Shown piece after piece: positions 16,538-28,187 of a stretch of DNA of 37,326 nt. The stretch is taken from contig CBDUQH010000001.1 of NCBI GenBank assembly GCA_965369335.1, positions 1 through 37,326 of the forward strand, in the 5' to 3' direction. The notes beneath the pieces are model-generated. The model made no database searches and had not been told where the DNA came from. It was given only the letters and a program-made list of their open reading frames with translations. A program made the position numbers and the translations under genes. The stretch is from an uncultured bacterium (GTDB taxonomy: Bacteria > Patescibacteriota > Microgenomatia > UBA1400 > CAYNFZ01). Positions within the stretch are counted from its first letter, which is position 1; every line of letters starts with the position of its first letter.

Positions 16538-18037
16538 TTAGAGCGCTAGGAGAATACCTGTGGAGATGAAGAGAAAGCCTGTTAATGTTAGTAGTATTAG
16601 CGGTGCGGTGGTGCCGGCTTCGGGAAGGGTCTCGGCTACTGGTGTGGGTGATGGCTGAGGGGTGACTTCTGGTGTGGGTGTGATTTGAGGTGTTGGGCTT
16701 GGAGATGGGCTTGGGTCAGGCCCTCCAACAGGTGGTGTGGCTGATGGAGATGGACTGGGTGTAACTCCTGGGGATGGTGATGGATATGGTGATGCTGAAG
16801 GGCTGGGTGAAGGAGAAGGATCAGGTGAGGCCGAGGGAGAAGGTGAAGGGGAAGATGATGGACTAGGAGAAGGGGATGGAGAGGGGCTTGGGTCTGGTTC
16901 TGGGTCAGGGTTGCCACAACCATGAGGCCAAGCAATGCCTTCGATGTCATCGTAAGGGGTGGTGACGTCTTCTGATTTGACGAAATCACTGCTAGCGGGA
17001 TCGTAGGCAAAAATGGTGTTGCTGCCACCAGAGGTGTGGTAGCCGCCCATAAGCAACCCGTCGGGTCTCATTTCTAGACCTTCGATGCGATTTGGGGCTA
17101 GATTGTGTTTGATGTTGGTGAATTGTTGAGTGTCGGGAACATAGGAGTAGAGGTCTGTGCCGGTTGTTAAGTAGAGGAGGTTGCCGTCGTTGCTCCAAGC
17201 AAGGCCTTGGATAAGCTCGTCTTTGTGTTCAAAAACTAGAGTGGCTTGACCAGTTTGTAGGTTGATTTGGACTAACCCTTCGGTGTTGACCCAACCCCAA
17301 AGGCTGTTGTCTGAATCTCTAAATGAAAGAGCAGGCATGGATTTGTCGAAGCCAATGTTACCGATGAGCTCTAGTGATCCTGTTGATTTGTTGACTTTGA
17401 AGAGTTTGCCTCTTTGGGATGAGTCGTAGCCAACCGAAGCGTAGAGATCGCCAGTGGTGGGGTGGAAATCTAAACCTTCAATGTCGTGGTTTTGGAGAAC
17501 TGGGCCAAGGGCGTTGATGGCGTAGTTGTTTTTGGGATCGATGGTGAAGAATTGAGAGTTGTTGCCGCCGGCGTCATTGACTGCATAGATAAAACAAGCT
17601 TGTTCTGGTTCTGAGGCTTGTTGGCGAATGTCTTGATCTTCTTGTGAGAGGCGAATGGCAGTGAAGGTGCCAAGACCAACAATAGTCGCGCCGATGAGAA
17701 GAATGAGCATGGCGATGATTTTTTTGGTGGGTCTAAACTTCTTTTTAGTGGGTGGGTCGGAAGGAGGTGGAGTGGTGTTGGAATTAGAAGAATCGGGTAT
17801 TGGTGGAGTGTTAGTGTTTTGGGGAGTTGGAATGAGAGATGGTGGGGTATTTGGTGATTGGTCTGGGGTTGGGGTTGGTGAAGTTGGAGTGGGTTGAGGC
17901 ATGGCGCTGGTGGATGGAGTTTGGATGGGCGGAGGATTGAGTGGTTTTTCGGTGTTGGAGGTGGGGACAGTTTGAGGTTCGTTTGGTGGAGTTTGGGGCA
18001 AGTTTGGAGATGGGACGTTGGGATTATTTTGATCCAT
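16538..18037 (-). CDS. Pro-rich, membrane-anchored beta-propeller-like surface protein with LPEAG sorting-like C-terminus
   Basis: From N- to C-terminus:
- About 100-aa P/T/N-rich N-terminus, then a TM segment (IIAMLILLIGATIVGLGTFTAI).
- Repeated IEGL/IQGL/IEGI blade-like motifs.
- A PSPSPS linker.
- LPEAG followed by a hydrophobic tail. Confidence 0.75.
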   Translation of the reverse strand: MDQNNPNVPSPNLPQTPPNEPQTVPTSNTEKPLNPPPIQTPSTSAMPQPTPTSPTPTPDQSPNTPPSLIPTPQNTNTPPIPDSSNSNTTPPPSDPPTKKKFRPTKKIIAMLILLIGATIVGLGTFTAIRLSQEDQDIRQQASEPEQACFIYAVNDAGGNNSQFFTIDPKNNYAINALGPVLQNHDIEGLDFHPTTGDLYASVGYDSSQRGKLFKVNKSTGSLELIGNIGFDKSMPALSFRDSDNSLWGWVNTEGLVQINLQTGQATLVFEHKDELIQGLAWSNDGNLLYLTTGTDLYSYVPDTQQFTNIKHNLAPNRIEGLEMRPDGLLMGGYHTSGGSNTIFAYDPASSDFVKSEDVTTPYDDIEGIAWPHGCGNPDPEPDPSPSPSPSPSPSSSPSPSPSASPDPSPSPSPSASPYPSPSPGVTPSPSPSATPPVGGPDPSPSPSPTPQITPTPEVTPQPSPTPVAETLPEAGTTAPLILLTLTGFLFISTGILLAL

Positions 18038-18943
18038 AGGAATACTTTATCAGTTTGGAATGGAATGTTGAATAAGGAATCTGGTAGGTGTTGAAACAAT
18101 TGCCCCCGATAGCAAACGCTTGTTCAATTCGCTCAAACTACCGGGGGTTTTAAAAATCTGCACAGGCTTCTATTTCTAATAAACATACAAGGTGATGCTG
18201 GTGTTGTACTGCGAGCATGTGCAGACCCGCAAGCGGGCAAAAATAATTCACTAGTTGGAAAATTTTGAGAGAGGAGTCAGTTAATATCTTTGGGCTGAAA
18301 CCAACTCCCGGGGCTATTGATCGGTTACAACCTATGTTTGTTTGACAACTCTCAGGTTATAACAAGCTCCTTGTCCGGATTTTCAAAGTGAGGATAGAGC
18401 AAGCTTGGCATTTACCACCAATCGCTCGTGCGCAGCTTGCTCTTTACGATAGGTAAAAGAACTTGAGTTGATGTTGCGCAAACACTAAATCGCTTATTTC
18501 CCAACACAGCGAATATTAAAGTGCTTGATTGGTAGGTTACGTTAGTGAGAGAAAAACTACAATAAGTAGTTGGTGTGGATTCGAGTCAAACTCGATTTAA
18601 AAGCGGTATGGCAAAGTCTAACTTTGCTTTTGTATTGAGCAACTTTAACAGAGGGAGATTTGTTGATTTGAAGTTGGGAAAAACGAAACTGTGTGGTGTG
18701 GGTCGGGTGTTGCTGAGTCTTTGTTGAAGGAACCGATATTTGACCCACACTACACAGTGGAAGATTGCACAAGTGTCTTCTGCTTTGAAGTAGTGATTTC
18801 AAAGAGAAGGGGAGGCTCTTGTGATCTTTTACAAGAGCCTTTAGAGGAATGTAAAAACTTCATTCAAGTGTGCAGGGTGAGTTGATTATATTTTTGATGT
18901 TTTTGGATGTAAAGGGAGAGATTGGTGTGTTTGGTGTGGGGCA

Positions 18944-18985
18944 TCCCGGGGAGATTGATCCCGGGGAAGTTTTCCCCGGGGAGGA
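18944..18985. repeat. Three tandem copies of a ~15-nt unit containing palindromic CCCGGGG
   Basis: TCCCGGGGAGATTGA / TCCCGGGGAAGTTTT / CCCCGGGGAGGATTT, starting at 18944, 18959 and 18974. Confidence 0.8.
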
Positions 18986-19515
18986 TTTTGGGCATGAAAA
19001 ACCCCACCACGTGTCTGTGTTTGTTAGATGTGTATTTTTGCACTAGGGGTTAAGTTTGGGACACGGGTGGGGAGTATTTATCGCTTGCTTGTCGGCTAGC
19101 CCGGGTTTGGTTGTGTAACCAAAGGGCATCGTGACTAGCTACATTGGCAAGCGGGAATATGGGGGCAAGGTTGTGCTGCGGAAGGTCTGCAAAGACTTGG
19201 GTCTTATTGGCTTCAGATTGCGCTTGAGGGCGCGGGTTTGTACTTATGTTGAACTTTTTGCAAAAGGTGGTCTATCTGGTTAGGTCACCGTGTTTTCGGA
19301 TGGGTTTACTGATGTTTGTAATACTGGTGCAGACCTTCCGCCCGACAAAGTCGGCAAAGTTGGGGAGGAGGGTTCTCGAACCGATAAAAGGTGGTTGAGA
19401 ACCCTCGAAGCGCATTGGAAAAGGATAAATGCGGACCCGCTCACAAGGCCAGTGAAACGGGTCTTCCATATGAAAAAAATGAGTTTCAATTTCTCTTTAT
19501 TCGCATAAAAGCAAA

Positions 19516-19543
19516 CTGGTTCTTCTGACCAGCGCTTTTTTTT
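19516..19543 (+). terminator. Possible intrinsic terminator
   Basis: CTGGT-tcttctg-ACCAG, then CGC and TTTTTTTT. The stem is short, so confidence is moderate only. Confidence 0.4.
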
Positions 19544-19713
19544 ACGACTTTTTGTCGAGAAATTCCGCCATGATCATCACCACCGATTATTTTGCCCATT
19601 GCCACCGTCATTTGAACGACTTGGAGGGCCAGTGCCGTGATAGAGAAAGGGATACATAGGAAACCATCCTTTAATATGGATTTTCGAGAAGTGCAACACT
19701 TGTTTTGATTTAA

Positions 19714-19869
19714 GGATTGCACCTTTGGAAAGATATAAAGTCGGTGGGGGGTGAAATGTGAAGTTTTGCGATCCTGAATATCGACTACTTCGCCAAATAC
19801 TATGTGGTATATGTCTTCGTGTTGGTTTTAGGATGACGAAATTTGTATATCCTTTCAGAGGTGCAATCC
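19714..19869 (+). other. 156-nt element closed by a 24-bp imperfect inverted repeat
   Basis: GGATTGCACCTTTGGAAAGATATA (19714-19737) pairs with TATATCCTTTCAGAGGTGCAATCC (19846-19869). That gives 21 Watson-Crick pairs, 2 G-U pairs valid only on the + strand, and 1 A-C mismatch. Confidence 0.7.
19765..19841 (+). repeat. Structured motif copy 1 (stem ATCCTGAA / TTTAGGAT, flanked by ..TTTTGCG and GACGAAA)
   Basis: Shares CTGAATATCG and TTT-AG-[GA]-ATGACGA with copy 2. The stem shows compensatory changes relative to copy 2. Confidence 0.6.
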
Positions 19870-19906
19870 GTTGCTTGTCAATGTTTGTCTATACACAACT
19901 CAATAC

Positions 19907-19954
19907 TTTTCGATTCTGAATATCGGCATAAATGCCGGTTTCAGAATGACGAGA
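19907..19954 (+). repeat. Structured motif copy 2 (stem ATTCTGAA / TTCAGAAT, inner hairpin CGGCA-taaa-TGCCG)
   Basis: Same flanks as copy 1 (CTTTTCG ... GACGAGA) and an 8-bp perfect stem. Confidence 0.6.
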
Positions 19955-20557
19955 TTGGATTGTGTGTAGATTTGTTAGCGATATTTTAATGAGCGTGTTA
20001 CTAAAGGTGTAACGGAGGGATAAATTGTAAGGTGTGTTTTAAATTAGCTTGTGCGAGAGTTTGGATAGCGTGGTCAAAGAGAGAGGGAGAAAAATCGTCG
20101 GTATGTATTTTTTTTATCTCTTGGCCACTAGAAGTCTCCGCACAAGCTTCTTGCAATAAATTTTTTTGGTCCATTCCAAAGTTGTATTGGAGGGACACTA
20201 AGTAGGGAAAACCCAAAGGCTAACCACGCATGATTAGCCTTGGTCCGATGTACTACTTCACAACATTCAGCGACATGGTTTTACGAGTTGTTGAAGTGTA
20301 CATCGCTTCGAGAAATGATACTGGTAACAGTGTTATATTGTTTCATAATAGTCCTTTCTGACTATATAAACGGATGTATAACACGGACACTGGAATAGCG
20401 ACCTAAATAACCATTCCGGTGTCAGTGTTTTAGCAATATAACTGGGTTTTCCCGATTTAAGGTACGGGTGTAACTATAGTGGGCGAGATAAAGATGAGCA
20501 ATGTATAAGAGGTGTGTAAAAATTAGGCCGATAGAGTTGTTTAATGTGTTTTATAGG

Positions 20558-20586
20558 TTGATACCTTGGGAAATGGGGGTTAAAAT
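20558..20586 (+). promoter_or_regulatory. Sigma70-type promoter, TTGATA-N17-TAAAAT
   Basis: TTGATA at 20558-20563 and TAAAAT at 20581-20586. The spacer ends in GGGGGT, as in the other island promoters. Confidence 0.5.
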
Positions 20587-20681
20587 AGGCGTTTGCTAAG
20601 ATTCACATTTTGCAATTTATGCGGGGTGAACCGAAAGCAATTTTTGCCCTTTTAGCCCTTTACCATAAGGAATGGAGAAGA

Positions 20682-21674
20682 ATGGATTTACAGACTTTGT
20701 ATCTGCAGTATCTGGTGTTGTTGTGTTCAAGAGATAAAAACACGATAACAAAGGCTTTTGGTTATGTTGGTAGTATTTCTCAATTTCAGGTTGAGCTGGT
20801 TGTGGAAAGAGACTCGCGGGAATTCGCTTTATATTTCCGTTTTTTTGATAAAGCTGATAGTGAAGTCAATCAATACAACTTGAGTCTGTCCAAGGCTTCA
20901 CTTTCAGAAGCAGTTTTGATCTGGGGAATAGCTGATCAAATGACCAAACTTGATGTGGTAGTGCTGAGTGAGGTGGTGGCGCGTATTCATCACACTGTGG
21001 TTGAATCTGTTAGTGATGATTTACGACGAGCTTTGCCGGTGGGTTTTCAAGTTGCTCTTGATCGGGTTTTTGATCGCTTTGACAAAGATGTCTTGCTGGA
21101 AAAAGTATTGAATCATAGAGGATTGTTTGATCTTTATGATTTGGATGTCTTTTTTGTAAAGTTTGAACACCTGTGGAATGCAGAAGTTTTTGAACCTCTA
21201 AAGATCACTAATCCTCAAAAGTTTATGGCTTTCATTGATGGCTCATGTTTGCTCTTGAAGGATGCTGGGTTGGAAGAGATATTTCACCGTTTTGCTCAGT
21301 ACAAGCAGATATCATATGTCACTGAACTAAAGATTATGGTGGAATTTATCTGTATGCTTGACGATTTCCGTAGAACACCGCCTGTCTTGGTTTTGTGGTG
21401 GACATTGCAGAAGTTTGGGTTAGTCGAAGTAGGTGATCATATTTTTGATTCAGAGTACTTTGGTCCGGTAACTCAGATTTTAGATGATGTTCTAATTTCT
21501 TCTGAAATTTACGTTGTTGAAACAGATATGCCAACGGTATCACCTAAGGTCTCAAGTACAGCAAGCCGTGTTGAACTGACTGAAGACGAAATTGTGCCAA
21601 AGGTACAATCAGACGATGATACAGCCAAATTGTTATTATATTTGGATACGAATGAGACTGCTGCTGTTGGTTAG
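20682..21674 (+). CDS. Island protein 1, acidic cytoplasmic hypothetical
   Basis: The ORF is open from TTG 20610. ATG 20682 is preferred because AAGGAATGGAGA lies just upstream and the promoter sits at 20558-20586. No signal peptide or TM segment. Confidence 0.6.
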   Translation: MDLQTLYLQYLVLLCSRDKNTITKAFGYVGSISQFQVELVVERDSREFALYFRFFDKADSEVNQYNLSLSKASLSEAVLIWGIADQMTKLDVVVLSEVVARIHHTVVESVSDDLRRALPVGFQVALDRVFDRFDKDVLLEKVLNHRGLFDLYDLDVFFVKFEHLWNAEVFEPLKITNPQKFMAFIDGSCLLLKDAGLEEIFHRFAQYKQISYVTELKIMVEFICMLDDFRRTPPVLVLWWTLQKFGLVEVGDHIFDSEYFGPVTQILDDVLISSEIYVVETDMPTVSPKVSSTASRVELTEDEIVPKVQSDDDTAKLLLYLDTNETAAVG

Positions 21675-21704
21675 ACCTCAAACTCCATATTACATGGGCA
21701 AAAA

Positions 21705-21741
21705 AGCCCCCGAAACTACAAATGTAGCTAGGGGGTTTTTT
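21705..21741 (+). terminator. Intrinsic terminator
   Basis: GCCCCC...GGGGG followed by TTTTTT. Confidence 0.65.
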
Positions 21742-21897
21742 GGTAGTTGCTGATATGAGTATGTTTTGATTGTGACCAATTTATGACAGATATGTCGATG
21801 AAGGGTTATTTTTTTGACTTGAGGGTATAATTGGGGTGTTTTGTCCAAGCTTGGTGAGATTTGGATCGAGTTTGGATGCACTTTGACAACCAACATG

Positions 21898-21933
21898 GCT
21901 TCAACTGAGTGAGTGGGGATACTCAATTGAAGC
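21898..21933 (+). promoter_or_regulatory. Leader hairpin upstream of island gene 2
   Basis: GCTTCAACTGAGT-gagtgggga-TACTCAATTGAAGC with one C-A mismatch and a G-rich loop. It lies 30 nt before the ATG. Confidence 0.5.
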
Positions 21934-21963
21934 TGTGTATATATAGAGTAAAAGGACAAAATA

Positions 21964-23238
21964 ATGTCGAAGCAGAACGTTTTAATGCAATTACCGTTTA
22001 AAGCTTTAAAAAAGTATAACTGGGATGATAAGTATTATTCTGGCAAAGCTTCACTGCGATTGGTGAGTCAATACAATCGGCTTTGGTTGGTGCGAGTAAT
22101 CTCCAACAAAAGAGGTGACTTTGAAGTTGGACGATTGAGTCTAGTCAACGCACATCCTGTGTTTGATTTGTATGGATTTATTCGAGTGATGGGATTGATG
22201 CGGCTAGTGTTGACAGAAGTGTTTACGGCGTCGCCCTTTGTTTGGCAGACGGATGCTGATCAAGAAGATGGTGGTTTGCCGAAAAAAGATCAAAGCTGGT
22301 TGATTGGGCTAGGTGAGTTGGCGTCTATTTTAGAAAACATGATTGCTTCTAGAATTGGTGCCGATCAACGACTTAGCCTTGATGAATTGTATGATCCTGA
22401 AGAGCTGACCACATTTGTTGAGAATTGGATTAATTGGGGGTTCTTGCCTGTTTGGCTGCCCAAAGTTTGGGATCAGCTTGACCCAGATGTTTCGGTTCTT
22501 GGTGAGCTTTACAACAAGCAAATGGTAAACAGATTGATGCTTGAGCAGATAAGTTTTTTTGATCAGATGCCTTTGTGGTTGAACTGGCAAGATTGGGAAG
22601 ATGCAGATTCACCAACTATCTTGCAACAAGAAGGTGAATATCTGAAATGGATGATTTTTACCACGGCTAAACAGTTGAAGATGAGTTTTGCCTATGGTAG
22701 TTCTGAGTGGTATCTGGCGACACTAATGTCTGTTTATACCGAAATGGTGCTGATGCGAACTGTTGATTTAGAGGCTCGTATTTCTGGGAAGTTGTTTAAA
22801 TTTGCTGTTCGGATAGCAGATCATTTTGAGTGTGAGCTGATCGAGCTGCTTGAAATTTTGCGTCCATATTGGCAGCATCAATATGATGTTGATTGGGTCG
22901 TTGAAGAGTGGAGTCTGCCAGACCAGAAGAATTGGGAGGGTACTTTTGGATACTTAAATTACCAGTTTGTTTCAGGCAGGTTTGATGCCAGTGGTGAGAG
23001 TTTGGACGATCTTCCCCCTAAATTGGTTGAAGCTTTGGGTGAATATCCTTGTCAGATTGGGATAGAAGCTTGGCGAATATGGAAATATGTGTTGCGCCAA
23101 TTTGGGGATAGGCTTACCAACGATCAAGCTGAGTACTTGAAGTTATGGGTGATTGTGCTTGGTGGTGCAAGACACGATTGCTTTCTATATGACAATATGT
23201 CACTGGTGATGGATGAGCTTGATGTAGCTCACGCCTAA
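21964..23238 (+). CDS. Island protein 2, acidic Trp-rich cytoplasmic hypothetical (424 aa)
   Basis: Long ORF with AAAAGGA 6 nt upstream of the ATG. No recognised domain. Confidence 0.7.
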   Translation: MSKQNVLMQLPFKALKKYNWDDKYYSGKASLRLVSQYNRLWLVRVISNKRGDFEVGRLSLVNAHPVFDLYGFIRVMGLMRLVLTEVFTASPFVWQTDADQEDGGLPKKDQSWLIGLGELASILENMIASRIGADQRLSLDELYDPEELTTFVENWINWGFLPVWLPKVWDQLDPDVSVLGELYNKQMVNRLMLEQISFFDQMPLWLNWQDWEDADSPTILQQEGEYLKWMIFTTAKQLKMSFAYGSSEWYLATLMSVYTEMVLMRTVDLEARISGKLFKFAVRIADHFECELIELLEILRPYWQHQYDVDWVVEEWSLPDQKNWEGTFGYLNYQFVSGRFDASGESLDDLPPKLVEALGEYPCQIGIEAWRIWKYVLRQFGDRLTNDQAEYLKLWVIVLGGARHDCFLYDNMSLVMDELDVAHA

Positions 23239-23276
23239 TATGGTATGAATTTTGACTCTATATGTGGTTGTTTATT

Positions 23277-23313
23277 GACCCCTTTGGCCTAGAGCTGGAG
23301 GGGTTGTTTTTTT
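23277..23313 (+). terminator. Intrinsic terminator (ACCCCT...AGGGGT + T-run)
   Basis: The same sequence recurs at 26828-26864 and 28120-28156. Confidence 0.7.
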
Positions 23314-23362
23314 AAGGATGGTGCTTGTAAGCAGAATTGGAAGTGTTGTTGAATCTATGATA

Positions 23363-23391
23363 TTGAGTGTGGGGTCTTTATGGGTTAGAAT
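23363..23391 (+). promoter_or_regulatory. Sigma70-type promoter, TTGAGT-N17-TAGAAT
   Basis: TTGAGT at 23363-23368 and TAGAAT at 23386-23391. Confidence 0.5.
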
Positions 23392-23452
23392 TTGGTGCTT
23401 TGGCGTTGCCTGTTGGCGGCAGTTAAAGCGCACTTTGACATCTGGTAGTTTA

Positions 23453-23493
23453 GGTTTCACATAGCGAGCTGGGGGAGTTGGCTATGTGAAATC
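23453..23493 (+). promoter_or_regulatory. Leader hairpin (13-bp stem, 15-nt G-rich loop)
   Basis: GGTTTCACATAGC-gagctgggggagttg-GCTATGTGAAATC, including one G-U pair valid on the + strand. It is followed by CTAAGTTTAGA and RBS AAGGA. Confidence 0.65.
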
Positions 23494-23520
23494 TAAGTTT
23501 AGAGATAAGGATAATGAAAG

Positions 23521-24543
23521 ATGTTTAATGCGTATTTACGATTGCTTCAGGAAGAAAGTGGTATGAATTTGGGGCAGATGCGGAATCATATTGAGCAAGA
23601 GCATGAAAAGGCTCTTGCTGCGTTGACTCCAAAAATCTTGCGTCAAAGTAGTCTTCGTCAGGTTGTGTTTCACGGTTTGGATGGTGAAGTGGAAACTGGA
23701 GAGCGATGTTTAGTGGTCTACGTGGTTTTGGGACGAATTTGTTTTGGTGCAGTTAAACATCCTGATGATTTGTGGAAAAGCCGTGGGCAAACCGAATTTG
23801 GTGAAGTTAAGTCTTACTTCGACATGATTCGTCACTGGAAGCTGATGTCGAAGATTAACACAATGTCTCAAGAAATGTTTGATTTGATTGGTGAGGCAAT
23901 TAGCGTGGGAGGAGATCCAGAAGATCAACAGAAATTGATCAATATGGTTGGGCGTAAAGCCTTTGATGAAGCCATGATTATCGATAAAGAAACTGTGGAT
24001 CAATATTTGGAACTATTGGTTGACGGTCTTGTGTGGGGCACACAGTTGTCGCGTGAAGTTCATCGTGGAATGCTAAAGTGGCAAGATCGGTTTGAAGAGT
24101 ATCGCCAATATGCTGTGTTAGATCCTGATGAATGGCTGGAGCGGCTGGCGTTTACTTGTGGTGATGATGCCATTGAACTGATGTCCACGTTGGCTGATAC
24201 ACTCAGTGGTAAGGACGAAGAAGAAATGCAGCTATTTTTTACCTCCCTTAGCCAAGCCGTAGAGCGTGGTTTTGGATATGTTTTCGATTGTGGGTTTGCA
24301 TCGCGTGAAGATGTGTCTGTGGCAATGGCTCACTATTGTGGGTTGCTATGGACATTGATTCGAAGTGATATAGTGTATGAACTGCTGGAATTTTCGGATA
24401 CAGAATCGTTGGATATTGTGGTCATGGATACTATTTATGACTACTATGGTGAGGAATCGTTGGGAAGCAAAGAGCAATGTCGGCAATTGTGTGAGACGTT
24501 GTGGAAAAACCACGAATCTTTGCTGGGAAATCATGACGAATAA
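23521..24543 (+). CDS. Island protein 3 (paralogue of 27063-28079)
   Basis: 340 aa. Shares KWQDRFEEYRQY, GFGYVFDCGFA and NHESLL with the 27063 product. Confidence 0.8.
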   Translation: MFNAYLRLLQEESGMNLGQMRNHIEQEHEKALAALTPKILRQSSLRQVVFHGLDGEVETGERCLVVYVVLGRICFGAVKHPDDLWKSRGQTEFGEVKSYFDMIRHWKLMSKINTMSQEMFDLIGEAISVGGDPEDQQKLINMVGRKAFDEAMIIDKETVDQYLELLVDGLVWGTQLSREVHRGMLKWQDRFEEYRQYAVLDPDEWLERLAFTCGDDAIELMSTLADTLSGKDEEEMQLFFTSLSQAVERGFGYVFDCGFASREDVSVAMAHYCGLLWTLIRSDIVYELLEFSDTESLDIVVMDTIYDYYGEESLGSKEQCRQLCETLWKNHESLLGNHDE

Positions 24544-24573
24544 TCCTTGGTAATCTACTACCTGTATGTTAAT

Positions 24574-24610
24574 GACCCCTTTGGACGATGTGCCTGAGGG
24601 GTTGTTTTTT
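24574..24610 (+). terminator. Intrinsic terminator
   Basis: ACCCCT..AGGGGT followed by TGTTTTTT. Confidence 0.65.
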
Positions 24611-24626
24611 GTGTGTACCCTATAGT

Positions 24627-24655
24627 TTGAGATTGGGGTTGTTATGGGGTAAAAT
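24627..24655 (+). promoter_or_regulatory. Sigma70-type promoter, TTGAGA-N17-TAAAAT
   Basis: TTGAGA at 24627-24632 and TAAAAT at 24650-24655. The spacer ends in ATGGGG. Confidence 0.5.
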
Positions 24656-24700
24656 CGGTGTCTGTTCGGCACTTTAAAAGATTTCTTGTGAAGGAGAACT

Positions 24701-24748
24701 AGGACACAAATAGCTAGAGGCTACTTGGCCTTTGGCTATTTGTGTCCT
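24701..24748 (+). promoter_or_regulatory. Leader hairpin (14-bp perfect stem; different sequence, same position)
   Basis: AGGACACAAATAGC...GCTATTTGTGTCCT, followed by the same CTAAGTTTAGA box and an AGGAG RBS. Confidence 0.65.
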
Positions 24749-24773
24749 AAGTTTAGACAGGAGAATGAAGGTA

Positions 24774-25640
24774 ATGAAAGTTTTGCATCGTGAGTATGTA
24801 AGTGGGTTTGGGTTTCTTGGCAAACATGTTGCTGTTGAGATTATCCTAAGTCTTCCAGAAACCGGAGGGCGTTATGAGTTGGCGATAAAGTATGGTAAGC
24901 AAGGTGGAGTCACTGAGACTTACAAGTATGCTGACGTTGATTTTTGTATCATCGTGTTTAGAATGCTTCTGACCTACAATCGACAGCTGAAGGTCAGTGA
25001 AGATGCTGCTTATGCAAGCGTGTATTCTTCTTTGTTGCAATTCGGTAGTTATGACAAGGTTGATCCGAATTTAGTTAATGCTTTGGGGCTTGAACCTTTT
25101 GAGGTTATTAATCAGCCTTTCGAAGGTTGGGAAGAAGAAGTGATTAATGAACAAGCCTTGGCTGGGAACTTTGATCTACACGCGGTTAGTATTTTGGTTG
25201 ACCATGGGATGTTGAAGCTTCGAGAAGAACTTGAAAGTAAGTTAGCAGAAGCTATGGCTGATTTTGAAAGTTGGCTTGATGCCACTGGATTAAATAACTT
25301 GTTTGACCTATTGGAGCCAAGCGAAGTGTTTTCCATCTTTGCGACTGAACGGGCAGCTTTGATCAGAACTTCATTTGTTATTTGGGACAAAGGTGAAGAA
25401 ATTCATGCTAATCAATCTAGTCATGTGATTGCTTTGGCTGTGTTGATTCGGTGCAATAGTGCCGTTTCCTTTCATGGTTCAAAACAAAATCTCAAAAGTA
25501 AAGCTAACTCTCTTGGGATTTTAATGATGCTGCCTTTCGTTTGGTCTAGCTATGATCTTCCCGGTGATCAGAATATTGATCAAATCGTGCAAGAAACGTT
25601 GGATTTTCTGGATTTACTGAAGCAATCTAGCGAACTGTAG
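24774..25640 (+). CDS. Island protein 4, acidic cytoplasmic hypothetical
   Basis: The ORF is open from TTG 24732, which would put the start inside the leader hairpin. ATG 24774 is preferred (AGGAG at 24759-24763); ATG 24765 is an alternative. Confidence 0.65.
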   Translation: MKVLHREYVSGFGFLGKHVAVEIILSLPETGGRYELAIKYGKQGGVTETYKYADVDFCIIVFRMLLTYNRQLKVSEDAAYASVYSSLLQFGSYDKVDPNLVNALGLEPFEVINQPFEGWEEEVINEQALAGNFDLHAVSILVDHGMLKLREELESKLAEAMADFESWLDATGLNNLFDLLEPSEVFSIFATERAALIRTSFVIWDKGEEIHANQSSHVIALAVLIRCNSAVSFHGSKQNLKSKANSLGILMMLPFVWSSYDLPGDQNIDQIVQETLDFLDLLKQSSEL

Positions 25641-25662
25641 AACTACAAAATCCTATGTGCCG

Positions 25663-25702
25663 ATAACCCTTTTGGAGAAAATTCCGAAAGGGTTATTTTT
25701 TT
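25663..25702 (+). terminator. Intrinsic terminator
   Basis: ATAACCCTTT / AAAGGGTTAT 10-bp stem followed by T6. Confidence 0.7.
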
Positions 25703-25788
25703 GGCTTGAAAGGCTATAATTGGGTGGATTTGTCAGGCTACTTTTGTTTGCAAAAGATAGTTTGAGTTCTTTAACAGACAAAGAGGCA

Positions 25789-25829
25789 GGTTTCACATAG
25801 CGAACTGGGGGAGTTGGCTATGTGAAATC
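25789..25829 (+). promoter_or_regulatory. Leader hairpin (same sequence as the 26994 copy)
   Basis: GGTTTCACATAGC-gaactgggggagttg-GCTATGTGAAATC. A TATAAT box lies at 25715-25720 upstream. Confidence 0.65.
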
Positions 25830-25856
25830 TGAACAAATAGTAGATTGGATAATCTA

Positions 25857-26798
25857 ATGAAGTTTTTTGGTTTGTACCCTGTAGTGGGTAAGTGTAATGT
25901 TCCTGACAATGTAATATATTGGCCTCCAAAGATACCTTTGTTTTCAGAGAAAACCTGGGCTGGTTTGGGTAGCTTTGATACTAAGGTAATGATGCAATTT
26001 TTGCTCCAAGTTGTGGATGGTGAGCTGTGCATTGTTGCCCAGAAGGATGGTGATTTTTCAGGTGAGGTGTATTTGCGTTATCGTGATAAGCGTTTTAATA
26101 ACCCCTTAAACTTCTTCGACCTAATTCGGGTTTGTGATGCAGCTAATGCTAGTAAGCGGATAAGCCCCACGCTGTTTATGTCATTGGTTTTTTGGCTGTG
26201 TAAGGGTGATGAACACAGCGGTGCGCTTGCTTTAGAACAAGTCTTGCAGAACAAGGATTGGATGGCAGATGACATTAGTCGGCAAGAATTGGACTATTAT
26301 CATTTGTTGTTGGTCCAAGGTTTGGTTGAAGGTGTGGATCTTGTGGAGTCGAAAGCGCGTTTGGCTTCATACATTGACCTCGAAGAAACTTTGAAGGAGA
26401 TGAAGAGGTTTGGGGTGATGAATAAAGCTGAAGTGCTTAATATTGCTGAATTTGTGTCGGAAACTTATGACCAAATCATTTGGCGTTTTGAAGGGTTTTT
26501 GCAAACTCGTCAGGTCATTATACAAAAAGCAATATTGTCTGGGTTCAAATGGGCTTATGCACGGGGGTTGTATTTTGATCCCAAATTGGCACATTTTGCT
26601 CATTTTAACGCTATGTTGTGGATATTGTTGGAGAACGACGTTGATTTGGAAACGGCTCAAGAACTGGTGGCGGAGTTTTTGGTGGATGAACGAGGAATGG
26701 GTGATAGCCACGCGAACTTTTTTGCAGGGTTGGGGCAATTTCGGATTGGCTACTATAACCACTATGGTTGGGAAGTGCCGGTGCCGGCTGATTCTTAG
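25857..26798 (+). CDS. Island protein 5 (distant paralogue of proteins 3 and 6)
   Basis: The track starts at TTG 25845; ATG 25857 is an alternative. Three motifs align with proteins 3 and 6: FFDLIRV, YHLLLVQGLVEGVDL and GFKWAYARGLYF. Confidence 0.7.
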   Translation: MKFFGLYPVVGKCNVPDNVIYWPPKIPLFSEKTWAGLGSFDTKVMMQFLLQVVDGELCIVAQKDGDFSGEVYLRYRDKRFNNPLNFFDLIRVCDAANASKRISPTLFMSLVFWLCKGDEHSGALALEQVLQNKDWMADDISRQELDYYHLLLVQGLVEGVDLVESKARLASYIDLEETLKEMKRFGVMNKAEVLNIAEFVSETYDQIIWRFEGFLQTRQVIIQKAILSGFKWAYARGLYFDPKLAHFAHFNAMLWILLENDVDLETAQELVAEFLVDERGMGDSHANFFAGLGQFRIGYYNHYGWEVPVPADS

Positions 26799-26827
26799 CT
26801 TGTTTCTCTCTCTTTGTTTAGTTGATT

Positions 26828-26864
26828 AACCCCTTTGGCCTAGAGCTGGAGGGGTTGTTTTTTT
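26828..26864 (+). terminator. Intrinsic terminator
   Basis: AACCCCT...AGGGGTT followed by GTTTTTTT. Confidence 0.7.
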
Positions 26865-26903
26865 GTGGATGTTCTTGCCGAGAAGCTATTTGAATCTAAG
26901 GGT

Positions 26904-26932
26904 TTGAGTGTAGAGGCTTTATGGGTTAGAAT
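26904..26932 (+). promoter_or_regulatory. Sigma70-type promoter, TTGAGT-N17-TAGAAT
   Basis: TTGAGT at 26904-26909 and TAGAAT at 26927-26932. Confidence 0.5.
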
Positions 26933-26993
26933 TTGGTGCTTTGGCGTTGCCTGTTGGCGGCAGTTAAAGCGCACTTTGACATCTGGTAGTTTA

Positions 26994-27034
26994 GGTTTCA
27001 CATAGCGAACTGGGGGAGTTGGCTATGTGAAATC
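26994..27034 (+). promoter_or_regulatory. Leader hairpin
   Basis: Same as 23453-23493 except for one loop base. Confidence 0.65.
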
Positions 27035-27062
27035 TAAGTTTAGAGATAAGGATTAGCTCATT

Positions 27063-28079
27063 ATGTCAGGAAGTGATTTTTTGGTAATTTTTAAAGCTGA
27101 TGCAGAAATGACATTGCGCGAAATGCAAGACTTTTTTCGCCAAAAGCATGATGAAGTACAAGAGCTTTTGAATCCAGAAATCTTGCGTCAGTGTTCCCCC
27201 AGGACGGTTAAGTTGGAATCTGAGAATGGCGATTTGATCGAAAAGGAAGTTGTTATCATCGTTTACAAGGTTAAGGGTCAAATTCGTATAGATGCCGTTG
27301 AAAGAGCTGATGACTTGATCGATCTGAAACATCCAATGAACTTTGGTGAGATTGACTCGTTTTTCGATGCGATCCGCCATTGGACTTTGTTGTGTCAAAT
27401 CAATGAAGTGTCGCAAGAAGTGTTTGATCTGATTAATGAAGCCATTAGTGTGGAAGGTAGTCCGGAAGTACGTGATCAGTTGGTACGTAGAGTGGGGCAA
27501 ACATCGTTTGATTTGGCGATGTATGTTGACACGTTGACGATGAATCAATACCTGACACTTTTGGAGGAAGGGGTGGCTTTAGGTGCCCAATTGTCCCTTG
27601 AAGTTCATTGGGGAAGGATTAAATGGCAAGATCGGTTTGAAGAGTATCGCCAGTACGGAGTGTTAAGCCCAGAAGAATGGCAGGAGCGAGTGGAATTTAC
27701 CACAAGCGATGAAGTCATTGGTTTGATGTCTGAAGTGGCTGCTTTTGTTGCCGGTGATGATGGAGTGTTTGATCATGCTTTTGAAGCGTTGAATCTTGCC
27801 TGTGGTCTTGGGTTTGGGTATGTTTTCGATTGTGGTTTTGCCCAGCGTGAAGATGTTTCTTTGTACACAAAGCTTCTTATTGGTTTGTGGGAAACTGTGA
27901 ATAACAGTGATTTTGTCTCAGAGATTTTTAGTGTCCTTGATTCAAAAGATCAAGGTTTGGCTCTTGCTGGAGTGATGGTGGAGTATTTTGGTACGGGTTC
28001 GATTGGGGAAGTATCAGAATTCCTGAAACAAGCATTGTTACTTTGGGAGAACCATGAATCTTTGTTGGTAGAGGATTAA
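27063..28079 (+). CDS. Island protein 6 (paralogue of 23521-24543)
   Basis: 338 aa, collinear with protein 3 along its whole length. Confidence 0.8.
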   Translation: MSGSDFLVIFKADAEMTLREMQDFFRQKHDEVQELLNPEILRQCSPRTVKLESENGDLIEKEVVIIVYKVKGQIRIDAVERADDLIDLKHPMNFGEIDSFFDAIRHWTLLCQINEVSQEVFDLINEAISVEGSPEVRDQLVRRVGQTSFDLAMYVDTLTMNQYLTLLEEGVALGAQLSLEVHWGRIKWQDRFEEYRQYGVLSPEEWQERVEFTTSDEVIGLMSEVAAFVAGDDGVFDHAFEALNLACGLGFGYVFDCGFAQREDVSLYTKLLIGLWETVNNSDFVSEIFSVLDSKDQGLALAGVMVEYFGTGSIGEVSEFLKQALLLWENHESLLVED

Positions 28080-28119
28080 TCCTTAGAAGTTCGTTGACTC
28101 TAACTATCAGAATGTTATT

Positions 28120-28156
28120 AACCCCTTTGGCCTAGAGCTGGAGGGGGTGTTTTTTT
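28120..28156 (+). terminator. Intrinsic terminator (third copy of the ACCCCTTTGGCCTAGAGCTGGAGGGG element)
   Basis: Lies between the convergent island gene 6 and the RND gene. Confidence 0.7.
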
Positions 28157-28187
28157 GTAGGGACGTCCCTTGAAAGATTGGGTTGGG

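What the first reader, a model, noticed from the sequence alone, without database searches (positions are those of the whole stretch)
18100..20600. 2.5-kb ORF-poor region packed with long helices between the surface-protein gene and the paralogue island
In a window where genes are otherwise separated by 20-450 nt, this 2.5 kb has only short, mutually overlapping ORFs without an RBS. It does contain many long stems:
- 18103-18112 / 18138-18147 (9 of 10 bp)
- 18396-18405 / 18434-18443 (10 bp, perfect)
- 18688-18704 / 18742-18758 (17 bp, one G-U)
- 18777-18789 / 18798-18809
- 18813-18822 / 18831-18840 (10 bp)
- 19002-19015 / 19060-19072
- 19368-19377 / 19397-19406 (10 bp)
- 19714-19737 / 19846-19869 (24 bp)
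- 20386-20396 / 20413-20423 (11 bp, one U-G), with outer 20380-20384 / 20425-20429

Most non-canonical pairs are G-U on the + strand and would be A-C on the - strand, which suggests + strand RNA. One exception, 18326-18335 / 18351-18360, favours the - strand.

The size and helix density resemble large 'ornate' bacterial ncRNAs (the GOLLD/ROOL/OLE size class), but I see no sequence signature of any class I know. Alternatives are a replication or packaging cis-region of an integrated element, or decayed genes and MITEs.
Basis: partly seen in the sequence, partly recalled or inferred. Interest (0 to 1): 0.75.

Follow-up and report, generated by a model that had tools for sequence, protein, structure and literature searches.

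The report
Long hairpin-rich non-coding spacer, unassigned
A 2.6-kb gene-free stretch in an uncultured Patescibacteria contig really is full of stable hairpins, but no more densely than this genome's other spacers, and it looks like several small structured units on both strands rather than one giant RNA.

Summary
Window 18038-20681 (2644 nt, between two divergent genes) has no coding potential, no Pfam remnant in any frame and no relic of any window gene. It folds far better than shuffles (z about -12 on + and -13 on -).

The interpretation as one + strand "ornate" RNA is not supported:
- Rfam gives nothing.
- Only short-range stems are enriched; long-range inverted repeats are at chance level.
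- Both strands fold equally well once composition is controlled.
- Stem density (3.0 per kb) is about that of the contig's other spacers (2.2 per kb; coding 0.34 per kb).
- The G-U bias on the + strand is expected from an extreme replication-strand skew.
- The best promoter in the region (11 of 12) is on the - strand. It drives a roughly 200-nt three-hairpin RNA that ends in a terminator-like stem.
- A T8 terminator sits mid-region on the + strand.

My best reading is a patchwork of independent structured modules: candidate small RNAs, leaders and terminators. No homologue of the region or of its flanking genes was found, so covariation cannot be tested. A new structured RNA class in one or more modules is not excluded.

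The parts
18038..20681 (.). Non-coding divergent spacer (2644 nt) between the - strand surface-protein gene 16538-18037 and the + strand orphan gene 20682-21674
   Evidence: No coding potential, no Pfam remnant in six frames, no relic of window proteins. Whole-region folding z is -11.9 and -13.0.
18103..18147 (+). Hairpin with a 10-bp stem (9 Watson-Crick pairs) followed by TTTT
18396..18443 (.). Hairpin with a perfect 10-bp stem (15-nt inverted repeat, 87% complementary)
18885..18913 (-). Sigma-70-type promoter-like site TTTACA-17-TATAAT (11 of 12), the best in the region
   Evidence: Across the contig, 10 of the 11 sites scoring at least 10 of 12 lie in intergenic DNA, which makes up about 20% of the window.
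18672..18879 (-). Candidate structured RNA of about 200 nt: three hairpins, then a terminator-like hairpin
   Evidence: MFE -63.5 kcal/mol, z -6.74, 0 of 200 shuffles as stable. It starts about 7 nt after the -10 box.
18688..18758 (-). 17-bp stem (16 Watson-Crick pairs; the 17th position is G-U on the + strand and an A-C mismatch on this - strand, left unpaired in the - strand fold) followed on the - strand by TTCGTTTTT
18943..18990 (.). Three CCCGGGG-containing repeats at 15-nt spacing, 32-68 nt upstream of the -35 box of the - strand promoter. Operator-like (inference).
   Evidence: (D1) and 40: 5 of the window's 6 copies lie in the region, against 1.17 expected for the whole window.
19002..19072 (.). 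Hairpin with a 14-bp stem interrupted by one bulge
19178..19341 (.). 164-nt domain closed by a 14-bp stem (21-nt inverted repeat, 86% complementary) with internal hairpins
   Evidence: (I3)
19368..19406 (.). Hairpin with a perfect 10-bp stem, extendable to 14 bp
19516..19545 (+). Intrinsic-terminator-like hairpin CTGGT..ACCAG followed by CGCTTTTTTTT. It also reads as a terminator on the - strand.
19705..19880 (.). Extended hairpin of about 176 nt. The 24-bp outer stem is 19714-19737/19846-19869; the inner hairpin is copy 1 of a duplicated motif.
   Evidence: (I1). z is -7.7 (+) and -7.5 (-).
19886..19972 (.). 87-nt near-perfect hairpin, copy 2 of the motif TTTYCGATYCTGAATATCG...GGTTTYAGRATGACGA. 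Relative to copy 1 it carries one compensatory stem change (C-G to U-A) and one wobble-to-Watson-Crick change (G-U to G-C).
   Evidence: (D2)
20024..20157 (.). 134-nt nested hairpin module (dG -46.6 kcal/mol on +)
   Evidence: z is -4.2 and -5.7
20205..20453 (.). 249-nt multi-branch (about five-way) junction domain closed by the perfect 11-bp stem GGGAAAACCCA/TGGGTTTTCCC. On the - strand it ends in an 11-pair terminator-like hairpin (20241..20216).
   Evidence: z is -7.5 (+) and -7.7 (-).
20558..20586 (+). Promoter-like site TTGATA-17-TAAAAT (10 of 12), the probable promoter of gene 20682-21674 with a 5' UTR of about 90 nt

Best explanation
The 2.64-kb stretch is a genuine non-coding spacer in a Patescibacteria (CPR) chromosome fragment. 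It is built from about a dozen independent, locally folding hairpin modules. It most likely holds several separate short transcription units and regulatory elements on both strands, not one giant RNA.

Shown:
- It does not code for protein.
- Short-range stems are about 10 times more frequent than chance, while long-range pairing is at chance level.
- There is a strong - strand promoter at 18913-18885. Just downstream lies a 200-nt three-hairpin structure that ends in a 17-bp stem followed by TTCGTTTTT.
- There is a hairpin plus T8 terminator at 19516-19545 on the + strand.
- There is a + strand promoter at 20558-20586 for the downstream gene.

Inferred:
- The - strand unit is a small RNA, or an attenuating leader of the sortase-type surface-protein gene about 640 nt further on. 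The CCCGGGG repeats upstream of its promoter would be operator sites.
- The 249-nt junction domain (20205-20453) and the twin hairpins (19705-19972) are further RNA modules, possibly also read from the - strand.
- The hairpins are kept by selection. The region's GC skew (0.23) is far below the value at four-fold degenerate sites (0.3-0.9) in a genome under extreme strand-biased mutation.
For: - Non-coding.
- Structure above chance on both strands.
- Only local stems enriched (8 against 0.8) and long-range stems not (3 against 2.6).
- Promoter and terminator sites. High-scoring promoter hits in this contig are almost all in true upstream spacers, which makes the 11-of-12 - strand site credible.
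- Real intrinsic terminators (hairpin plus T run) follow genes elsewhere in the contig, so the T8 site at 19516 is of the organism's own type.
- The CCCGGGG cluster sits just upstream of the - strand promoter.
- Other spacers of the contig carry the same hairpin density, as 5' UTR hairpins and terminators. Hairpin modules are therefore this genome's normal regulatory currency.
- Region GC skew is 0.23 (0.18 in paired positions), against 0.52 and 0.80 at four-fold sites.
Against: - There is no expression data and no homologue, so no module is proven to be transcribed or conserved.
- About 1.6 kb in the middle (18914-20557) has no convincing promoter on either strand. Promoter-like sites are not enriched in the region (2 found against 6.2 expected).
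- The terminator of the - strand unit has a 37-nt loop and an interrupted U run.
- The low GC skew could instead mean that the region, like the adjacent island genes (four-fold skew 0.31-0.54), is young rather than constrained.
- A 2.6-kb cluster of small RNAs with no protein gene among them would itself be unusual.
Confidence: 0.45

Rival explanations
1. Relic DNA. The spacer is the leftover of deleted or decayed genes or of a non-autonomous mobile element. Its palindromic hairpins are MITE- or REP-like sequences, or orphaned terminators and UTR hairpins, with no present function.
For: - Both strands fold equally well, as expected for DNA-level inverted repeats.
- Several modules are near-complete palindromes or are flanked by 17-24-nt inverted repeats (I1, I3, I5).
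- One hairpin motif is locally duplicated.
- The adjacent island looks younger than the core by four-fold-site skew.
- Promoter-like sites are not enriched.
Against: - No protein remnant by tblastn, profile search or six-frame Pfam.
- No second copy of any module in the other 34.7 kb of the contig.
- No copy found by the pattern and six-frame scans: one hairpin motif against JGI metagenomes, one inverted-repeat pair against viral contigs, and translated stretches 19489-19827 against GTDB genomes and 18560-18859 against JGI metagenomes. Whole-region blastn against phages and plasmids also found nothing.
- No target-site duplications were seen at the inverted-repeat ends (sequence).
- Old neutral DNA should approach the four-fold-site skew of 0.3-0.9, not 0.23.
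- Streamlined CPR genomes are expected to purge 2.6 kb of junk (general knowledge).
Confidence: 0.25
2. The region encodes one or two very large structured non-coding RNAs of a new class, in or above the GOLLD/ROOL/OLE size range.
For: - It is long and non-coding.
- Folding z-scores are very strong.
- It contains a closed multi-way junction domain.
- GC content is slightly above that of other spacers (0.42 against 0.39). This fits the 'long, GC-rich IGR' criterion used for ncRNA discovery (PMC8723152).
Against: - No Rfam match.
- It is 3-4 times longer than any known ornate RNA (PMC12286853, PMC9723947).
- There is no long-range helix signal.
- It contains an internal - strand promoter and an internal + strand T8 terminator.
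- Helix density is no higher than in ordinary spacers of the contig.
- There is no strand preference.
- There is no phage or tRNA context.
Confidence: 0.12
3. DNA-level switches. Segments flanked by inverted repeats (19714-19869, 19171-19348, 20199-20459) are invertible elements that phase-vary expression of the flanking surface-protein gene or the orphan-gene island.
For: - Inverted-repeat pairs of 17-24 nt flank segments of 108-227 nt.
- A sortase-type surface-protein gene is adjacent (the LPEAG motif is read from the translation).
- The neighbouring island shows conserved flanks around diverged coding sequences.
Against: - No recombinase domain was found in any window protein scanned.
- No promoter-like site lies inside the flanked segments.
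- The segments are themselves densely self-complementary, which invertons do not need.
Confidence: 0.07
4. A replication origin, partition region or packaging cis-region of the chromosome or of an integrated element.
For: It is a long non-coding, hairpin-rich DNA stretch between divergent genes.
Against: - Cumulative GC skew is monotonic across the window, with no sign change.
- The region holds no DnaA box with at most 1 mismatch and no parS-like site.
- It has no iterons or tandem repeats.
- Flanking proteins give no PHROG hit, and there is no phage or plasmid DNA match.
Confidence: 0.03

Closest known systems
GOLLD, ROOL and OLE 'ornate' large bacterial ncRNAs (Rfam families; PMC12286853, PMC9723947)
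   Same: A long non-coding stretch with many helices, including a multi-way junction domain.
   Different: - No covariance-model match.
- The known classes are about 600 to just over 800 nt; this stretch is 2.6 kb.
- GOLLD and ROOL lie in phages or prophages near tRNA islands. There is no tRNA and no phage gene here.
- There is no evidence of a single transcript or of long-range architecture.
Stand-alone bacterial small-RNA genes (own sigma-70 promoter, stem-loops, intrinsic terminator)
   Same: The - strand unit 18913 to about 18676 has an 11-of-12 promoter, three hairpins, and a terminal long stem followed by a U-rich tail.
   Different: - Expression, target and conservation are unknown.
- The terminator loop is unusually large (37 nt).
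- The unit could instead be an attenuating leader of the gene about 640 nt downstream.
Palindromic intergenic repeats (MITEs, REP/BIME, Correia-type elements)
   Same: - Near-perfect hairpins of 87-260 nt, some flanked by inverted repeats.
- Equal foldability on both strands.
   Different: - No further copies in the contig or in any collection scanned.
- No target-site duplications.
- The only repetition is a local tandem duplication of one hairpin motif.
Invertible promoters (invertons such as fimS or the Bacteroides capsule switches)
   Same: Inverted repeats of 17-24 nt flank segments of 100-230 bp next to a surface-protein gene.
   Different: No recombinase was found and no internal promoter. 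Orientation heterogeneity cannot be tested here.

Membership tests
GOLLD / ROOL / OLE and all other Rfam 15 families | Match to the family covariance model at or near its gathering score | tested here: not met
   0 hits at gathering thresholds in the whole window. At E<=10 in 17900-20800 there are only mir-1265 (26.5 bits against a gathering score of 79) and mir-312 (20.2 against 55), that is, generic long hairpins.
GOLLD / ROOL | Phage or prophage context, often next to tRNA islands | tested here: not met
   No tRNA or tmRNA in the window. PHROGs gives nothing for 9 of the 10 neighbouring proteins scanned and one sub-threshold hit of unknown function (E 0.0027) for the tenth. No DNA match to phage records.
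Single large structured RNA (any class) | One transcript on one strand, with long-range helices that organise the domains and covariation that supports them | tested here: inconclusive
   - Long-range inverted repeats are at chance level.
- There are internal promoter and terminator signals on opposite strands.
- There is no strand preference.
- Covariation cannot be tested, because no homologue exists in any collection.
- Transcription cannot be tested.
Stand-alone sRNA gene | Own promoter, a non-coding structured body, an intrinsic terminator | tested here: met
   - Promoter 18913-18885, 11 of 12.
- Body z of -6.7.
- The embedded ORF frame has a negative coding score.
- A 17-bp stem followed by TTCGTTTTT.
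These are consensus-level signals only.
Stand-alone sRNA gene | Detectable transcript with defined 5' and 3' ends | not testable with these tools
   No transcriptome data are available.
MITE / REP-type repeat | Multiple dispersed copies in the genome | tested here: not met
   - No blastn match between the region and the rest of the contig.
- A pattern scan for one hairpin motif (JGI metagenomes) and six-frame scans of stretches 19489-19827 (GTDB genomes) and 18560-18859 (JGI metagenomes) were negative.
- Only 37 kb of this genome could be examined, so the test is weak.
MITE / REP-type repeat | Terminal inverted repeats with flanking target-site duplication | tested here: inconclusive
   Inverted repeats are present, for example 20199-20215/20443-20459 with 15 of 17 matching. 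No direct repeat is evident at the ends (sequence).
Pseudogene / decayed gene | Residual protein similarity or residual codon structure | tested here: not met
   Sensitivity is limited, because the lineage's own proteins are mostly orphans.
Chromosomal origin (oriC) | DnaA-box cluster and a GC-skew sign change | tested here: not met
   No DnaA box with at most 1 mismatch in the region. Cumulative skew is monotonic.
Inverton | Inverted repeats flanking a promoter, a site-specific recombinase, and both orientations present in reads | tested here: inconclusive
   Inverted repeats are present. No internal promoter and no recombinase domain were found. Read-level orientation cannot be tested.

The most novel reading that the evidence does not exclude
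At least one module is a previously undescribed class of structured non-coding RNA, specific to a deep-branching Patescibacteria lineage. Candidates are the 249-nt multi-way junction domain 20205-20453, the twin long hairpins 19705-19972, and the - strand three-hairpin RNA 18879-18672. In the extreme version, the whole 2.5 kb is one giant RNA, larger than GOLLD.
Probability: 0.2. Interest if true: 0.65.

Novelty: new member of a known kind. Interest (0 to 1): 0.33.

Why it matters
CPR/Patescibacteria genomes are small and gene-dense, and almost nothing is known about their regulatory RNAs. A 2.6-kb gene-free stretch that keeps about a dozen near-perfect hairpins is therefore likely to be functional, because the genome is under extreme strand-biased mutation that should erode them. 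It would be a good place to look for lineage-specific small or medium-sized RNAs controlling a surface-protein gene and an orphan-gene island. As it stands, the locus is a singleton with no homologue, so it offers candidates for transcript mapping rather than a demonstrated new RNA class.

Tried and rejected
- Rfam at gathering thresholds and at E<=10: nothing usable.
- ARAGORN: no tRNA or tmRNA.
- Synteny and covariation were not possible.
  - The flanking UPF0182 protein has no relative above 29-30% identity in 5.8 billion proteins.
  - The downstream neighbour is an orphan.
  - Exact look-ups of window proteins returned no contig.
  - GTDB genome scans were negative, as were JGI metagenome scans.
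  - A viral-contig scan for the 20205/20453 inverted repeat gave one chance hit with no internal similarity.
- NadE relatives (up to 64% identity) show that the lineage is Patescibacteria.
  - One 31.9-kb Logan contig (L003) keeps the NadE-to-AcrB synteny.
  - Only coding DNA aligns to it. The 10-kb flank limit stops about 7.5 kb short of the region's expected position, and there AcrB is followed by a different gene.
- The nearest UPF0182 hit (L002) has an unrelated gene context.
- Pseudogene tests (tblastn, phmmer, family HMM, six-frame Pfam) were all negative.
- Phage and plasmid DNA searches were negative.
- Origin and partition signals (DnaA boxes, parS, tandem repeats) were absent.
- Leaderless small-ORF scan:
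  - The only candidate is a 49-aa ORF at ATG 18897, with a weak -10 box 4 nt upstream. That box is just the reverse reading of the - strand TATAAT.
  - Its coding score (+0.046) sits at the lower edge of the range of real genes (0.037-0.24), so I do not take it as a gene.
- The region-spanning inverted repeat 18110-18124/20584-20598 is dismissed as chance.
- I considered building a covariance model of the duplicated hairpin and dropped the idea. There are only two copies, and a 3-mismatch pattern search finds no third.
Full report
**Context**

The window is a complete 37,326-nt contig known from NCBI, ENA and Logan. It is chromosomal: it carries an MFS transporter, a 2-hydroxyacid dehydrogenase, UPF0182, an AcrB/HlyD pump, an M50 peptidase, L28 and NadE. 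NadE's best relatives are 64% identical, and the named hits are Patescibacteria or Candidatus Gottesmanbacteria. The organism is therefore a CPR bacterium without close sequenced relatives. UPF0182 has no relative above 29-30% identity, and the gene next to the finding is an orphan.

Two genome-wide properties matter for the finding:
- The + strand is extremely G-rich and C-poor whatever the gene orientation. GC skew at four-fold degenerate sites, expressed on the + strand, is +0.52 for + genes and +0.80 for - genes, and 0.3-0.9 for nearly every gene.
- Many genes are leaderless, with TATAAT 5-9 nt before the ATG. Absence of a Shine-Dalgarno sequence therefore says little here.

**Check of the observation**

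The region is the divergent spacer 18038-20681, 2644 nt long.
- On the left is a - strand gene for a sortase-type (LPEAG) surface protein with PS/PT-rich linkers, 16538-18037.
- On the right is a + strand orphan gene that most likely starts at ATG 20682, with GGAG 5 nt upstream.

The region is non-coding by every test available:
- A 3-periodic Markov model scores all 27 genes positive under leave-one-out. Every ORF of at least 40 codons in the region scores 0.07 or less, and mostly negative.
- A six-frame Pfam scan gives no hit at E<=1.
- tblastn, phmmer and a family HMM of the neighbouring proteins find no relic.

The listed stems are real:
- 8 of 11 pair in register exactly as given.
- Two need a bulge.
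- The '- strand exception' exists, but at 18324-18333/18354-18363 (plus the sequence).

Structure is far above chance:
- Whole-region MFE z is -11.9 (+) and -13.0 (-).
- Individual modules have z of -6.7 to -7.7, with 0 of 200 shuffles as stable.
- Short-range 12-nt stems number 8, against 0.8 +/- 1.0 in shuffles.

**What the structure is not**

- It belongs to no described RNA family. Rfam 15 gives nothing at gathering thresholds and only two miRNA-precursor chance hits at E<=10.
- The helix density is not special for this contig.
  - In 120-nt windows, mean z is -1.28/-1.78 in the region and -1.53/-1.27 in the other 15 spacers.
  - Strong stems occur at 3.0 per kb in the region, 2.2 per kb in other spacers and 0.34 per kb in coding DNA.
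  - A mostly coding 2.6-kb piece of the neighbouring island reaches z = -12 on the + strand.
  - Only the length of the spacer is unusual.
- There is no sign of long-range architecture.
  - Inverted repeats at least 300 nt apart are at chance level (3 observed against 2.6 +/- 1.6).
  - The long-range helices of the unrestricted MFE are short and unremarkable.
- There is no + strand preference.
  - z-scores are equal or slightly better on the - strand.
  - But G-U pairs are slightly fewer than in shuffles (0.173 against 0.192).
  - The same 3:0 bias appears in spacer 16185-16537, which lies between two - strand genes.
  - This bias is what C depletion of the + strand predicts.

**What is there**

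Sites scoring at least 10 of 12 in the promoter scan are highly specific in this contig: 10 of 11 lie in intergenic DNA. Two are in the region:
- TTGATA-17-TAAAAT at 20558-20586 (+) is the promoter of the downstream gene.
- TTTACA-17-TATAAT at 18913-18885 is on the - strand.

From the - strand promoter, the - strand reads through a 208-nt stretch that folds into three hairpins inside a closing stem. It ends in the 17-bp stem 18758-18688, followed by UUCGUUUUU (z -6.7). The embedded ORF has a negative coding score. Three CCCGGGG-containing repeats at 15-nt spacing lie 32-68 nt upstream of the -35 box. Five of the window's six copies of that heptamer are in the region, against 1.17 expected. I read this unit as a candidate regulated small RNA. 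Alternatively it is an attenuating leader of the surface-protein gene about 640 nt downstream. This is inference.

Other features of the region:
- A hairpin plus T8 at 19516-19545 (+) has the same form as the terminators that follow genes elsewhere in the contig, and it also reads as a terminator on the - strand.
- A 164-nt domain is closed by a 14-bp stem (19178-19341).
- A 176-nt hairpin (19705-19880) and an adjacent 87-nt hairpin (19886-19972) share a duplicated motif. The two copies differ by one compensatory stem change (C-G to U-A) and one wobble-to-Watson-Crick change (G-U to G-C).
- A 134-nt nested hairpin lies at 20024-20157.
- A 249-nt multi-branch (about five-way) junction at 20205-20453 is closed by a perfect 11-bp stem. 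On the - strand it ends in an 11-pair terminator-like hairpin.

**Functional or junk?**

The region's GC skew is 0.23: 0.18 in paired and 0.35 in unpaired positions. This is far below the four-fold-site values. Under such strong strand-biased mutation, old neutral DNA should be much more C-depleted, and G-C pairs should have decayed. Near-perfect Watson-Crick stems therefore suggest purifying selection.

The caveat is that the adjacent island genes are also less skewed (0.31-0.54). Relative youth of the whole block is an alternative explanation.

**Alternatives tested**

- Origin or partition region: no skew switch, no DnaA box, no parS, no iterons.
- Integrated-element cis-region: no PHROG hit and no phage or plasmid DNA match.
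- MITE: no second copy in the contig, and none in the pattern and six-frame scans run for parts of the region.
- Inverton: inverted repeats are present, but there is no internal promoter and no recombinase.

**Comparative evidence could not be obtained**

The only syntenic relative reachable is L003, with NadE 54% identical. It aligns in coding DNA only, and AcrB there is followed by a different gene.

**Verdict**

The stretch is a real, statistically robust, hairpin-rich non-coding spacer of unusual length. It is best explained as a patchwork of independent structured modules on both strands (confidence about 0.45). Rivals are relic or palindromic DNA (0.25), one or more new large ncRNAs (0.12), invertible switches (0.07), and an origin or packaging region (0.03). 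It is a member of no known RNA family. Its interest is moderate to low until transcript maps or homologues exist.

Noticed in passing
whole window 1-37326: Extreme strand compositional asymmetry. GC skew averages +0.32 and is positive in every 500-nt window, whatever the gene orientation. At four-fold degenerate sites (expressed on the + strand) it is +0.52 for + genes and +0.80 for - genes, for example G=235 and C=23 in AcrB.
   Followed up: partly
gene starts at 2486(-), 5726(-), 5817(+), 8448(-), 8505(+), 10888(+): Many genes look leaderless. A TATAAT-type -10 box lies 5-9 nt upstream of the ATG, with no Shine-Dalgarno sequence. Other genes (11439, 13266-16184, 20682, 33301-33918, 35370) have GGAG-type sites.
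   Followed up: partly
23239-23520, 25641-25844, 26799-27062, 28080-28187: The non-coding flanks of the orphan-gene island are far better conserved than the genes.
- A 164-nt upstream block is 95% identical between two copies.
- A 43-nt hairpin is present three times at 98-100% identity.
- A terminator hairpin is present four times.
- The two flanked proteins (23521-24543 and 27063-28079) are only 44% identical.
- By phmmer, only this pair of the six island genes is clearly paralogous.
This suggests cassette-like exchange, or gene conversion confined to the flanks.
   Followed up: partly
33919-34560: A 642-nt spacer has an 11-of-12 promoter with an extended TG (- strand, 34538..34509) about 590 nt upstream of gene 33301-33918. 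The - strand structure is strong (window z down to -7.5). It has no Rfam match, and the relative L003 shows no DNA conservation here. It could be a long structured leader or a small RNA.
   Followed up: partly
12801-13265 and 16185-16537: - The convergent spacer 12801-13265 is strongly structured (z down to -6.4 on +).
- Spacer 16185-16537 holds a 10-of-12 - strand promoter about 290 nt upstream of the UPF0182 start.
- Long 5' leaders on - strand genes may be a recurrent theme in this contig.
   Followed up: no
13266-28079 compared with L003:10365-16547: In the nearest syntenic relative (Logan SRR13394437), the NadE-L28-M50-HlyD-AcrB block is conserved, but AcrB is followed by a peptidase M48 gene instead of the orphan island. 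UPF0182 has no close relative anywhere. The block UPF0182 / surface protein / spacer / island may be lineage-specific. Island genes also show lower four-fold-site skew.
   Followed up: partly
16538-18037 (-): The 'surface protein' has these parts:
- an N-terminal PT-rich segment and a transmembrane helix;
- a weak DUF4394 / beta-propeller match;
- long PS-repeat linkers;
- a C-terminal LPEAG motif followed by a hydrophobic tail, which is a sortase-type sorting signal.

   Followed up: no
33109-33193 and 35592-35633: An 8-nt-period A/G-rich repeat (AAAAGNNC-like) occurs both in the spacer downstream of gene 33301-33918 and in the 3' end of the L28 gene, where it encodes a Lys/Ala-rich tail (D2, D6).
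   Followed up: no
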